DNA of 10,830 nucleotides from a virus (lineage: Duplodnaviria; Heunggongvirae; Uroviricota; Caudoviricetes). Shown here piece by piece: positions 9,001 to 10,830 of the stretch. The DNA is taken from the IMG/VR virus record IMGVR_UViG_2563366997_000003. One strand, written 5' to 3'. Made by a program: the position numbers. The stretch's first letter is position 1; each line of letters opens with the position of its first letter.

Positions 9001-10830
9001 AGAGCGGGCAGAGTGATGATTGAAACTTTTACGGCGGCACTTATCCCTACTGCCCTACTAAAAACGAGACGAGGCCAGACGTAGCAAGGCTTTAAACTAG
9101 GTAGGGATATATATTTTTATCCCTACTTATCCCTACATATCCCTACCAAATAAAACAGGCAGTAAAATGCCGTTGAAGTGATTTAGTAGGGATAAGTAGG
9201 GTTATGTAGGGCAACAAAATTGAATGCCTACCAGTCTGAAAGCCTTGCCATTCGTGGCCTGAGCCAGTTAGTAGGGATTGGTAGGGATATTACACCCCCA
9301 AAAAGATTCTATGGGGGGGGTGAGCTTAAAACGAAACTTGTCAAAACTTGACACACAGAACGATGCCACCAGCTACTGAGCGGCGGCATTTTTTTTGTGC
9401 TATTTGTTTCATATTTTGCAATTACGGTGATAAATATTGCGATTTGTGAAACTATAATAACTGTTGTTTTATACAGTTCTAAGGGGCGTTATGGCTATTT
9501 CAGTAAAGCCGGTATTGATAAGTGAGAAGCAAATGGAAGCGATAAAGAAAATTCAGGAGGAGCAGCGTAAAAAATCAGAGGTAGGAGTTGCGCCAACGAT
9601 CCACGAAATTGCTCGGGGATTAATGGATAAGGCGCTGGCCTCACTGGCAAGCGAGGGCGCGTAATGGGCGCCATTCACCAGATATATAAACCGGAAATGT
9701 TCTATAACTGGATAGGTGATGGTAAACGATGTGTAGCATTCCACGAAGCGGGACATGCAGTAGCTGCATGGCTTATTCGCTTAGATGTACAGGTTATCGC
9801 CGTTATGGATGAATATGGTTACGTTGCTGGCGAACATGTACATGAGGCCAAGTGTTTGGGTGTTGTTAAACACAGCATAATTCACAGCCACGATCTAGGG
9901 CGTTTGCGGGATAGTAAATCTGGTGTAGTTGGGCAGAATGGTAAAGTTATCCCTTTCATACGTTACTATGCGGATGGTATAAAGCGCGATGCAAAAAAGG
10001 CCGCTTTTGTATCCCTCGCCGGACCAGTAAGCGAAGCCCTTTACGAAAACAACGATATTTTCAACAAAAAGTATTCGCTACCTCATCGCTATGACATGGC
10101 TAACGTAAATGACATGCTCGATTTAATCTGCGCTACAGATAAGCAAATTAACAGGGAGTTAATGCTTTCTAAACTCGTTGAAAAGACCAAAGCCCTCATG
10201 GCTCAATACTGGTATGAAGTAGAAAAAATAGCGCATTTGCTTGAACGGGATAGCATTGTGAATGGTCGAAATGTTAGCTCGTTAATTGGCATCAACGTCA
10301 TAGACCGGGCAACGCCATTTTTGCTGGTGGAATAACTCCCGACCAAACTCATTCGATGATTCATTTCTCCACGGGTAAGCTATGCCGGTAGACCTAACTC
10401 CGCAGTATTACCGGAATCAGCCAGGCTACAGGCACACAGGAGGCCACGCAACACAATCCGCGCCGGGATGGGAGTTATATAATACCCCTGATGATTTTGA
10501 CCAACGCCCACCATTCGACGATGAAACGCCATTCTGGGGGAGATAAACATGGTAAACGACAGTAAAGCCGAGGATCTGGAAGCAAAAGGGCTGTACCGAC
10601 GCGCCGCAGCGCGATGGATGGAAGTCATGCTGTTATGCACCGAGGACGATGATCGGGAATGGATAAAGCGCCGCCGTGAAACGTGTCTGGAGAACGTGAA
10701 GCGCCCGCCCGTGAAGGTTGAGGACTTTGGCGACCTACATAAAGCTGTTACCGAAACGCAACACCGCATGGGGATAGCGCAACCGAACGGTAACGCCTTC
10801 CGGTTAAATGGCGGCAAGAGGCAAAGGTAG

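What the first reader, a model, noticed from the sequence alone, without database searches (positions are those of the whole stretch)
9042..9289. Iteron origin with helical-phase spacing immediately downstream of the primase-helicase
Seen in sequence: about 11 copies of a 9-bp unit (TATCCCTAC and its complement GTAGGGATA), including two triplets at exact 10-bp spacing in opposite orientation around an AT-rich 39-bp spacer. This is the classic architecture of an iteron-type origin bound by the element's own initiator. P4 alpha binds iterons in ori and crr (established knowledge), but the P4 iteron I recall (TGTTCACC) differs, so this element likely has distinct origin specificity.
Basis: partly seen in the sequence, partly recalled or inferred. 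Interest (0 to 1): 0.45.

Follow-up and report, generated by a model that had tools for sequence, protein, structure and literature searches.

The report
Satellite island replication origin, iteron type
The repeat array right after the primase-helicase gene is almost certainly the replication origin of a phage-satellite island (a Gram-negative PICI), built like the origin already tested in E. coli CFT073 and like phage P4's crr, but using a different 9-bp recognition word, so it is a real but ordinary member of a known kind.

Summary
TATCCCTAC or its complement occurs 9 times at one mismatch or fewer in 9042-9289, against 1.6 expected for the whole window. Three degenerate copies bring the total to 12 sites. 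They form a near-perfect dyad centred at 9165.5: ++ / - / AT tract / +++ / 39-bp spacer / --- / + / --.

The window is a Gram-negative PICI inserted at yicC-yicG (int, alpA, P4-family primase, perC). The published description of PICI origins fits: immediately 3' of pri, with two iteron sets flanking an AT-rich region. The tested EcCICFT073 origin has the same site-by-site layout with the word TGTCTACC.

The primase C-terminus matches the P4 alpha origin-binding domain (1KA8, E 4e-8). Across 80 loci from other genera the layout is kept while the word changes. The word tracks the C-terminal domain, not the helicase. A Tatumella primase is 81% identical in the helicase part and 30% in the C-terminal domain, and it uses P4's TGTTCACC.

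One correction: the strongest AT tract is 9107-9120, not the 39-bp spacer. Binding and replication are inferred, not shown.

The parts
6525..9023 (+). P4-family primase-helicase (alpha-like Pri), the presumed initiator. RefSeq relatives start it at the ATG equivalent to 6594.
   Evidence: Pfam finds Zn_Ribbon_Prim, Toprim_3, D5_N, DUF5906 and Pox_D5. It is 43% identical to P4 alpha over 97% of aa 376-832 and 55% identical to the EcCICFT073 Pri over aa 379-819.
8691..8969 (+). C-terminal domain (aa 723-815), homologous to the P4 alpha origin-binding domain and the presumed iteron reader.
   Evidence: phmmer against the PDB hits 1KA8 at E 4e-8, chain residues 2-93 of 100. DNA similarity to the Tatumella chimera L009 stops at window 8671, about codon 716, which is this domain's boundary.
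9022..9032 (.). Left edge motif GAAACTTTTAC, directly after the stop codon.
   Evidence: AAAGTTTT or AAAACTTT lies 4-21 bp after the primase stop in 6 of 24 non-redundant relatives. The same word follows the last iteron in 12 of 24, against 0.7 expected. Function unknown.
9042..9058 (+). Sites 1-2: outer pair of iterons, TATCCCTAC and CTGCCCTAC.
   Evidence: A pair sits at the same place (offsets of about 16-36 from the stop) in most loci with 7 or more copies.
9073..9093 (.). Conserved non-iteron block GGCCAGAC-N4-CAAGGCTTT, in the left arm.
   Evidence: GCCAGAC recurs at the same place in L010 and L051 and in the right arm of L020. It is not a significant hairpin. Function unknown.
9101..9109 (-). 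Site 3: a lone inverted iteron (GTAGGGATA).
9107..9120 (.). AT tract ATATATATTTTTAT (GC 0), the best candidate for first melting.
   Evidence: It is the least stable 20-bp stretch of the region (-1.02 kcal per step, beyond the window's 99th percentile of -1.086). It is conserved in the CCCTAC class. An AT/T-rich run sits at the same place in the other classes.
9118..9146 (+). Sites 4-6: three exact iterons at 10-bp spacing.
9147..9185 (.). Central 39-bp spacer containing the dyad centre (9165.5).
   Evidence: GC is 0.33. Only 3 of 39 columns are invariant among the window, Buttiauxella, L007 and Shimwellia, and its length varies across loci.
9186..9214 (-). Sites 7-9: three inverted iterons at 10-bp spacing, with 0, 1 and 2 mismatches.
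9223..9231 (+). Site 10: degenerate iteron AATGCCTAC, the mirror partner of site 3.
   Evidence: Read directly from the sequence. A + copy at offset about 177-206 is present in most relatives.
9236..9263 (.). Conserved non-iteron block CTGAAAGCCTTG...GTGGCCTGAG, in the right arm.
   Evidence: CTGAAAGCC(G/T)(C/T)GCCA is shared with EcCICFT073 and Shimwellia. No significant fold. Function unknown.
9271..9289 (-). Sites 11-12: outer inverted pair, the mirror of sites 1-2.
9293..9322 (.). Right edge: C-run, AAAAAGATT, G-run. This is the last part that travels with this primase and origin.
   Evidence: E. coli genomes with this origin match the window up to about 9335. Relatives carry CAAAACTTTT plus a G-run at this place. 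The fold is weak (z -1.6).
9334..9397 (+). Not part of the origin module: tandem AAACTTGTCA/AAACTTGACA, then a terminator-like hairpin followed by U8. This is the start of the downstream module.
   Evidence: It is shared at 89-97% identity with islands whose initiator and iterons differ. The hairpin is -14 kcal/mol, z -2.5.

Best explanation
Region 9022-9322 is the vegetative replication origin of a Gram-negative phage-inducible chromosomal island (PICI) of the P4-alpha replicon type.

Proposed mechanism:
1. After induction and excision, the island's primase-helicase binds the 12 TATCCCTAC-type sites through its C-terminal winged-helix domain.
2. The sites form two mirror-image arms of six. 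The roughly 10-bp phasing within groups puts neighbouring sites on one face of the helix.
3. Binding concentrates the SF3 helicase rings on either side of easily melted DNA: the AT tract at 9107-9120, its weaker mirror at 9212-9222, and the 39-bp spacer.
4. The duplex opens, the same protein primes, and host polymerase III replicates the circle in theta mode.
5. The word read by the domain differs from P4's (TGTTCACC) and EcCICFT073's (TGTCTACC), so this replicon should answer only to its own initiator.

Shown here: the repeats, their layout, the homologies and the covariation. Shown elsewhere: pri- and ori-dependent plasmid maintenance for the EcCICFT073 homologue, and alpha binding to type I repeats in P4. 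Inferred: binding to this word, the place of melting, and one hexamer per six-site arm.
For: Island type:
- The gene order is int, alpA, a Bro/Ash/Icd zone, P4-family primase and perC, all on one strand.
- In E. coli E7 the island is inserted between yicC and yicG, flanked by ATCGAGTAAG and ATTGAGTAAG 12.75 kb apart. That att core and site are listed for a PICI in Table S1 of PMC6092414.

Published definition:
[quoted passage not shown] The EcCICFT073 pri-ori plasmid was maintained, while the delta-ori and delta-pri plasmids were not.

Site-by-site homology of layout:
- EcCICFT073 has TRTCTACC at offsets 16+ 25+ 71- 93+ 104+ 113+ 144- 155- 177+ 223- 232-.
- The window has its word at 21+ 29+ 77- 97+ 107+ 117+ 162- 172- 182- (201+) 247- 257-.
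- EcCIRM13514 has the same layout with P4's TGTTCACC.
- About 24 non-redundant loci from Enterobacterales and Aeromonas have it with at least 6 different words.

Initiator domain:
- Primase aa 723-815 match 1KA8 at E 4e-8.

Coupling of word and domain:
- Tatumella L009 is 81% identical to the window in the helicase part but 30% in the C-terminal domain (49% to P4's domain), and it uses TGTTCACC. DNA similarity breaks at codon ~716.
- Over 561 locus pairs, C-terminal-domain identity predicts a shared word with AUC 0.86, against 0.65 for the helicase part.

Independence from downstream genes:
- E. coli 83972 shares the window's downstream module from 9334 onward. It has an unrelated TOPRIM/DUF927 initiator and its own GTTGGTTCA x3 / AT-rich / TGAACCAAC x3 array.

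Selection on the sites:
- In the CCCTAC class, 58% of iteron columns are invariant against 30% of the other columns (Fisher p 2e-6). The central spacer has 3 of 39 invariant.
Against: - Nothing here shows binding or replication for this element. All functional evidence is by homology to EcCICFT073 and P4.
- In P4 the positional equivalent (crr) is an accessory cis element, and initiation is mapped to a separate ori 4.5 kb away (annotation). Position alone therefore does not prove that initiation starts here.
- The single-sequence AlphaFold model of the C-terminal domain was unusable (pLDDT 48). The winged-helix assignment rests on sequence only.
- The covariation statistics are not corrected for phylogeny. 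The natural chimeras are the stronger argument.
- The one-hexamer-per-arm idea rests only on the count of six sites per arm.
Confidence: 0.85

Rival explanations
1. The array is a crr-like accessory element only. The initiator binds it and it is needed in cis, but first melting and priming occur at a separate origin elsewhere in the island, as in P4, where ori and crr lie 4.5 kb apart.
For: The array sits exactly where P4 has crr, just downstream of alpha. One exact extra copy of TATCCCTAC lies at 2348-2356 in the 5' end of alpA, near where P4's ori lies relative to its alpA-like ORF88.
Against: The window has no second cluster. Outside the array there is one exact copy, one 1-mismatch copy at 4689 and one further bare CCCTAC core at 6518. 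EcCICFT073 has all 9 exact sites in the array. EcCIRM13514, which uses P4's own word, has all 9 exact copies in its array. The EcCICFT073 fragment holding only pri and this region sufficed for plasmid maintenance.
Confidence: 0.07
2. The array works through its secondary structure. The 250-nt palindrome extrudes as a cruciform or forms a long hairpin in single-stranded DNA or in the 3' end of the primase mRNA. It would then act as a structure-specific signal (single-strand initiation site, RNA stabiliser or attenuator), not as a set of sequence-specific binding sites.
For: The single strand 9036-9295 folds into one hairpin of -57.3 kcal/mol, z -8.8. No terminator lies between the primase stop and the array, and the first terminator-like hairpin is at 9362-9397, so the array is probably transcribed.
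Against: A hairpin model does not explain why the same word is repeated directly at 10-bp spacing within each arm. It also does not explain why every arm in every class re-uses one word, or why the word tracks the initiator's DNA-binding domain. The central and inter-site sequences, which would make up much of the stem, are poorly conserved. Rfam finds nothing here.
Confidence: 0.04
3. The repeats are an operator or binding array for another DNA-binding protein of the island or host (AlpA, PerC, an Ash/Bro protein, DnaA or IHF). That protein would regulate the downstream operon or the end of the primase operon.
For: The array lies between two transcription units, and several HTH-type regulators are encoded in the island. 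One exact copy lies inside alpA.
Against: The downstream operon and its leader (from 9334) occur unchanged behind unrelated initiators with unrelated iterons. The word changes with the primase C-terminal domain at a recombination breakpoint that leaves the upstream helicase region similar. The window has no DnaA-box or IHF consensus.
Confidence: 0.03

Closest known systems
Replication origin of Gram-negative PICIs, type example EcCICFT073 (Fillol-Salom et al. 2018, ISME J, PMC6092414)
   Same: It lies immediately 3' of the pri gene, with two oppositely oriented iteron sets around AT-rich DNA. The same 11-12-site order and offsets are seen (++ - +++ --- + --), along with a shared non-iteron block (CTGAAAGCC..GCCA). 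The initiator is 55% identical over the helicase and C-terminal domain. The island type (int-alpA-pri-perC, unidirectional) and the yicC-yicG att site are listed in the paper's Table S1.
   Different: The word is TATCCCTAC instead of TGTCTACC. They share CTAC and differ at 2-3 positions. The initiator carries a full N-terminal Zn-ribbon/Toprim primase (832 aa against 584 aa). This island has no capsid genes in the window. Function has not been tested for this element. I could not see the paper's Fig. 2a, so I cannot say whether this word is among those printed there.
Bacteriophage P4 crr and ori with alpha protein (GenBank X51522 annotation; Ziegelin and Lanka, and Yeo et al. 2002 for 1KA8, from established knowledge)
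   Same: The initiator is the same kind of primase + SF3 helicase + C-terminal origin-binding domain (43% identity; 1KA8 match at E 4e-8). The array sits where crr sits, just after the initiator gene. Both use short 8-9-bp words in both orientations, and an A-run/T-run motif (AAAACTTTT) closes the unit.
   Different: P4's word is TGTTCACC. P4 has a bipartite system (ori 9086-9809 plus crr 4291-4590), whereas there is a single array here. P4's crr is two 120-bp direct repeats, whereas here there are two roughly 120-bp inverted arms. The island lacks sid, delta and psu in the window.
SaPI origins (Ubeda et al. 2007 PNAS; 2012 Plasmid; established knowledge, papers not held)
   Same: The origin lies directly downstream of pri-rep, with iteron sets flanking an AT-rich stretch. 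Rep-ori specificity differs between islands.
   Different: This is a different lineage of initiator, and homology of the origin was not tested here. SaPI islands are transcribed divergently and belong to Gram-positive hosts.
Plasmid iteron origins (pPS10, RK2, F, P1, R6K; Rep winged-helix initiators)
   Same: Repeated initiator-binding sites lie next to an AT-rich unwinding element, and the sites probably define incompatibility or specificity.
   Different: Plasmid iterons are 17-22 bp, mostly direct and spaced about two helical turns apart. They are read by a dedicated Rep protein with host DnaA, DnaB and DnaG. Here the sites are 9-bp words at one-turn spacing in a dyad, the initiator is itself the helicase and primase, and no DnaA box is present.

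Membership tests
Gram-negative PICI replication origin (PMC6092414) | Located immediately 3' of the replication initiator (pri/rep) gene | tested here: met
   The stop codon is at 9021-9023 and the first iteron at 9042.
Gram-negative PICI replication origin (PMC6092414) | [quoted passage not shown] | tested here: met
   The + triplet is at 9118-9146 and the - triplet at 9186-9214, around a 39-bp spacer of GC 0.33. There is also a GC-0 tract at 9107-9120.
Gram-negative PICI replication origin (PMC6092414) | Host element is a PICI: int, alpA and pri transcribed in one direction, about 8-15 kb, at a dedicated att site | tested here: met
   Pfam finds the integrase, AlpA and primase domains and PerC. 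In E. coli E7 the island is 12.75 kb between yicC and yicG, with the att core ATCGAGTAAG listed in Table S1.
Gram-negative PICI replication origin (PMC6092414) | Layout homologous to the experimentally tested EcCICFT073 origin | tested here: met
   The order, orientation and offsets of 11-12 sites are the same, and the initiator is 55% identical.
Gram-negative PICI replication origin (PMC6092414) | Pri-dependent, ori-dependent replication of a plasmid carrying the fragment | not testable with these tools
   This needs the temperature-sensitive vector assay of Fig. 2b.
P4 alpha / ori-crr replicon | Initiator with primase, SF3 helicase and a C-terminal origin-binding domain of the 1KA8 type | tested here: met
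P4 alpha / ori-crr replicon | Type I repeat TGTTCACC as the recognition word | tested here: not met
   The word here is TATCCCTAC. P4's word was read in X51522.
P4 alpha / ori-crr replicon | Bipartite cis elements: an ori cluster plus a distant crr cluster | tested here: not met
   There is a single array. Outside it there is only one exact 9-mer, one 1-mismatch copy and one further bare CCCTAC core.
P4 alpha / ori-crr replicon | crr built of two 120-bp direct repeats | tested here: not met
   The arms are inverted, not direct.
Plasmid Rep-iteron origin | 17-22-bp direct iterons read by a Rep (WH1-WH2) initiator, with DnaA boxes | tested here: not met
   The words are 9 bp at 10-bp spacing in both orientations. 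The window has no Rep gene and no DnaA box.

The most novel reading that the evidence does not exclude
The array is one instance of a family-wide, fixed origin grammar: two mirror-image arms of six short sites each, bracketed by AAAACTTTT-type edge motifs. In this reading each arm docks the six C-terminal domains of one alpha-type helicase hexamer, so a head-to-head double hexamer assembles over the AT tracts. Exchange or point evolution of the C-terminal domain's last ~40 residues, together with the word, then creates orthogonal replication-specificity groups among co-resident satellites.

Natural variant pairs would give a readable protein-DNA recognition code:
- The window (YLTRSINGRAQ) against Rosenbergiella L008 (YKTRLVKGKTQ, word TCTCTACC).
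- L053 against L054, which are 95% identical in the domain but use GGTATACAC and GGTGTTCAT.
- The Tatumella domain-swap chimera L009.

The grammar and the coupling are observed. The hexamer-per-arm mechanism and the recognition code are speculation.
Probability: 0.3. Interest if true: 0.5.

Novelty: new member of a known kind. Interest (0 to 1): 0.25.

Why it matters
It identifies the cis-acting origin of a satellite island carried, at 95% identity or more, by 77 of 5426 complete E. coli genomes. The origin is unannotated in every record shown. It also shows that the island uses a recognition word different from those of P4 and EcCICFT073.

In practice this gives the minimal replicon to clone (6525-9335). 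It predicts which satellites can cross-activate each other's replication. The natural chimeras offer a simple system for working out how alpha-type origin-binding domains choose their DNA word. It does not reveal a new kind of system.

Tried and rejected
- Rfam scan of the whole window at E up to 1: nothing in the array. It found only C4, isrK, c4-a1b1 and int-alpA RNAs elsewhere.
- Sigma-70 promoter and intrinsic terminator consensus scans of 8900-9700: no hits. A terminator-like hairpin at 9362-9397 was missed because of its 11-nt loop and was found by folding.
- DnaA-box and IHF consensus searches: none in the window.
- Lambda cosN and P2/P4 cos searches: no meaningful match, so there is no sign that the array is a packaging site.
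- AlphaFold2 on the C-terminal 115 aa without an alignment: pLDDT 48, unusable. No fold search was attempted.
- Local hairpins for the two conserved non-iteron blocks: not significant (z -1.3 and 0.0). I no longer call them hairpins.
- Full-text search for the word itself returned only I-SceI-site papers. One literature query failed on a short term. The classic P4 and SaPI origin papers are not held.
- PADLOC on the cargo ORFs: only a weak candidate hit (PDC-S22) in the AntA protein.
- Phage collection: no match to the array. Plasmid collection: only partial matches at about 79% identity.
- The lone exact iteron in alpA was considered as a second, P4-ori-like site and rejected as probably chance. 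About 0.08 exact copies are expected outside the array, and there is no equivalent in EcCICFT073 or EcCIRM13514.
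Full report
**1. What is in the sequence.** The primase-helicase ORF ends with TGA at 9021-9023. TATCCCTAC at one mismatch or fewer hits the window 11 times, and 9 of those lie in 9042-9289. Shuffles give a mean of 1.59 and a maximum of 6. The core CCCTAC occurs 11 times in 9045-9286, against 3.0 expected for the whole window.

Adding the degenerate copies gives 12 sites:
- + strand: 9042, 9050, 9118, 9128, 9138 and 9223.
- - strand: 9101, 9186, 9196, 9206, 9271 and 9281.

The sites also form a dyad about 9165.5: 1 mirrors 12, 2 mirrors 11, 3 mirrors 10, and 4-6 mirror 9-7. 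The repeat finder reports 80-nt arms that are 73% complementary. The single strand 9036-9295 folds into one hairpin of -57.3 kcal/mol, z -8.8.

The spacer is moderately AT-rich (GC 0.33; window GC 0.507). The extreme tract is ATATATATTTTTAT at 9107-9120 (GC 0), which is the least stable stretch of the region.

**2. What the element is.** Pfam finds a tyrosine integrase (1-1260), AlpA (2334-2537), AntA, an Ash/Icd-like protein, a P4-family primase-helicase (Zn ribbon, Toprim, D5_N, DUF5906, Pox_D5 C-terminus) and PerC, all on the + strand.

The window matches E. coli chromosomes at about 96% identity. In strain E7 the island lies between yicC and yicG. It is flanked there by ATCGAGTAAG and ATTGAGTAAG 12.75 kb apart. 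That att core, the yicC-yicG site and perC are listed for a PICI (CfCIP10159) in Table S1 of Fillol-Salom et al. 2018.

That paper defines Gram-negative PICIs and states three things. The region immediately 3' of the initiator gene is the origin. [quoted passage not shown] An EcCICFT073 pri-ori plasmid is maintained at the restrictive temperature while the delta-ori and delta-pri versions are not. [quoted passage not shown]

**3. Direct comparison with the tested origin and with P4.** I fetched EcCICFT073 (L002). The 288 bp after its pri carry TRTCTACC nine times exactly, and nowhere else in the 13 kb. The order, orientation and offsets match the window:

| Element | Site offsets from the stop codon |
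|---|---|
| EcCICFT073 | 16+ 25+ 71- 93+ 104+ 113+ 144- 155- 177+ 223- 232- |
| Window | 21+ 29+ 77- 97+ 107+ 117+ 162- 172- 182- (201+) 247- 257- |

The two initiators are 55% identical over the helicase and C-terminal domain. EcCIRM13514 (L084), another PICI listed in that paper's Table S1, inserted at yicC-dinD, has the same layout built from TGTTCACC, which is P4's own word.

In P4 (X51522) the annotated crr, with ten 'ori type 1 repeats', lies directly downstream of alpha. The ori proper is 4.5 kb away. The window's array is therefore the positional equivalent of crr, but the window has no second cluster.

The window's primase aa 723-815 match the crystallised P4 origin-binding domain 1KA8 at E 4e-8. 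The whole C-terminal half is 43% identical to alpha.

**4. Does the word go with the initiator?** A scan of one genome per species returned 80 loci encoding relatives of the helicase and C-terminal half. For each locus I took the 330 bp after the stop codon and looked for the commonest 6-mer de novo.

About 35 loci (24 non-redundant) show 7-13 copies in the same layout, with different words:
- CCCTAC in Kluyvera, Atlantibacter, Buttiauxella, Shimwellia and an Aeromonas.
- TCTACC in many genera.
- TGTTCAC(C) in Tatumella, Erwinia, Rahnella and Serratia.
- (G)TGTTCAT in Morganella, Providencia, a Xenorhabdus, an Escherichia sp. and Edwardsiella.
- GGTATACAC in Pseudocitrobacter.
- GTCACT in Aeromonas.

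CTTCCA also recurs at 5-6 copies in L074 and L076, and CTATACATC in Xenorhabdus at 3-5 copies; both fall below the 7-copy cut.

The words are variations on one 8-mer. For example, TGT-CT-ACC and TGT-TC-ACC differ only in the middle two bases.

An alignment of the C-terminal domains sorts by word. Over 561 pairs, C-terminal-domain identity predicts a shared word with AUC 0.86, against 0.65 for the helicase part. This figure is not corrected for phylogeny.

Three natural experiments are more telling.

| Pair | Helicase-part identity | C-terminal-domain identity | Words |
|---|---|---|---|
| Tatumella L009 vs window | 81% | 30% (49% to P4's domain) | TGTTCACC vs TATCCCTAC |
| Rosenbergiella L008 vs window | 80% | 76% | TCTCTACC vs TATCCCTAC |
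| L053 vs L054 | 99% | 95% | GGTATACAC vs GGTGTTCAT |

- For L009, nucleotide similarity stops at window 8671, about codon 716, which is the domain boundary.
- For L008, the differences from the window cluster in YLTRSINGRAQ against YKTRLVKGKTQ.
- For L053 and L054, the few substitutions again fall in the equivalent segment.

Conversely, the DNA from 9334 onward recurs at 89-97% identity in several hundred of the 555 E. coli genomes matched by the 8990-9480 query, and their upstream sequence differs. In strain 83972 that upstream part is an unrelated TOPRIM/DUF927 initiator with its own array, GTTGGTTCA x3, AT-rich DNA, then TGAACCAAC x3. The word therefore follows the initiator's C-terminal domain. 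It does not follow the helicase, the upstream genes or the downstream genes.

**5. Selection on the sites.** I compared the window with Buttiauxella, L007 and Shimwellia, whose initiators are 85-86% identical to the window's over the aligned stretch. Of the iteron columns, 58% are invariant, against 30% of the other columns (Fisher p 2e-6). The central spacer has 3 of 39 invariant and varies in length.

**6. Mechanism.** From established knowledge, P4 alpha is a primase, a 3'-5' SF3 helicase and a sequence-specific origin binder in one chain, and it replicates P4 in theta mode without DnaA, DnaB, DnaC or DnaG.

By homology I propose the following. The window's initiator binds the 12 sites through its C-terminal domain. 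The one-turn phasing aligns bound domains on one face of the helix. The AT tracts next to the inner triplets melt, and the protein loads and primes. The absence of DnaA and IHF consensus sites fits independence from host initiation factors.

Six sites per arm, and six annotated type I repeats in P4's ori, suggest one hexamer per arm. That is speculation.

No terminator lies between the primase gene and the array. A terminator-like hairpin followed by U8 sits at 9362-9397, at the start of the shared downstream module. The array is therefore probably transcribed with the primase operon.

**7. Rivals.**
- A crr-only role is weakened by the lack of any second cluster here, in EcCICFT073 or in EcCIRM13514, and by the sufficiency of pri plus this region in the published assay.
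- A purely structural palindrome does not explain direct repetition of one word inside each arm or its coupling to the DNA-binding domain.
- An operator for another regulator is contradicted by the module boundaries.
- Rfam, cos-site and ORF checks found nothing else in the array.

**8. Verdict.** The feature belongs to a published class, the Gram-negative PICI origin of the P4-alpha type. What may be new is the particular word and the family-wide view: a fixed 2 x 6-site dyad grammar, edge motifs, and domain-word co-swaps.

The array is present at 95% identity or more in 77 of 5426 complete E. coli genomes, with no annotation under the match in any record shown. It is absent from the phage collection.

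I rate it a new member of a known kind, of low to moderate interest.

Noticed in passing
window 4401-4626: Rfam hits above gathering score to isrK (4414-4490) and C4 antisense RNA (4539-4626), plus a sub-threshold hit (38.9 bits against a gathering score of 46.7) to c4-a1b1 targets (4401-4453). All lie inside the Icd-like/Ash ORF region, so this is a P1/P4-type RNA immunity module. Such hits in Gram-negative PICIs are already mentioned in PMC10111431.
   Followed up: partly
window 1289-1355: An int-alpA RNA motif (RF02996, 62 bits) lies just after the integrase gene. It is followed by an AT-rich ORF (1376-2221, 281 aa) with no Pfam or PADLOC match, which may be cargo.
   Followed up: partly
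window 2348-2356: One exact TATCCCTAC lies outside the array, in codons 5-8 of alpA. About 0.08 exact copies are expected by chance. EcCICFT073 and EcCIRM13514 have no extra-array exact copies, so this is probably chance, but the position recalls P4's ori next to its alpA-like ORF88.
   Followed up: partly
window 9334-9397; L085 4000-4075: A tandem 10-mer (AAACTTGTCA / AAACTTGACA) is followed by a terminator-like hairpin and U8. This is the start of a module shared at 89-97% identity by several hundred of the 555 E. coli genomes matched by the 8990-9480 query, behind different initiators. The role of the tandem 10-mers is unknown.
   Followed up: partly
L085 3574-3711 (E. coli 83972): An island with an unrelated TOPRIM/DUF927 initiator has its own array directly after the stop codon: GTTGGTTCA x3 at 9-bp spacing, 40 bp of AT-rich DNA, then TGAACCAAC x3. 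The logic is the same as in the window but the protein family differs.
   Followed up: partly
window 9022-9032 and 9293-9322; L002, L008-L010, L016, L020, L027, L051, L063, L064, L071; P4 L003 4470-4490: The array is bracketed by an AAAACTTTT-type motif, and on the right side also by a G-run. The exact AAAACTTT lies 17-25 bp after the last iteron in 12 of 24 non-redundant loci (0.7 expected), and an inverted copy lies just after the stop codon in 6. P4's crr has AAAAAAAACTTTTTTC at the end of its first 120-bp repeat (the second ends in a related A-run/T-run, GAAAAAAAATTTTTTAT). The window's right-hand copy has diverged (AAAAAGATT). Function unknown.
   Followed up: partly
window 9073-9093 and 9236-9263: Two non-iteron blocks are conserved across iteron classes: GGCCAGAC..CAAGGCTTT and CTGAAAGCC..GCCA..TGGCC. 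They do not fold significantly on their own. Function unknown.
   Followed up: partly
L009 (Tatumella morbirosei) 3001-4700: This is a natural chimera. The helicase part is 81% identical to the window's and the C-terminal domain 30% (49% to P4's). Its iterons are P4's TGTTCACC, and the DNA breakpoint is at the domain boundary.
   Followed up: yes
L053 (Pseudocitrobacter faecalis) and L054 (Escherichia sp. ESNIH1), 330 bp after the primase stop: The initiators are 99% identical in the helicase part and 95% in the C-terminal domain, but the iteron words differ at 3 of 9 positions (GGTATACAC against GGTGTTCAT). Intermediate sites occur in L054. This looks like a snapshot of protein-site co-evolution.
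   Followed up: partly
window 2981-3814: The C-terminal half of the AntA-family protein (aa 165-266) matches the PADLOC candidate defence family PDC-S22 (E 4e-11).
   Followed up: no
plasmid hits H89-H93 (Klebsiella pneumoniae NZ_CP093490.1 301834-302053; Salmonella plasmids of about 270-290 kb): Partial matches of about 79% identity to the right half of the array occur on large plasmids. This suggests related islands or replicons inserted in megaplasmids.
   Followed up: no
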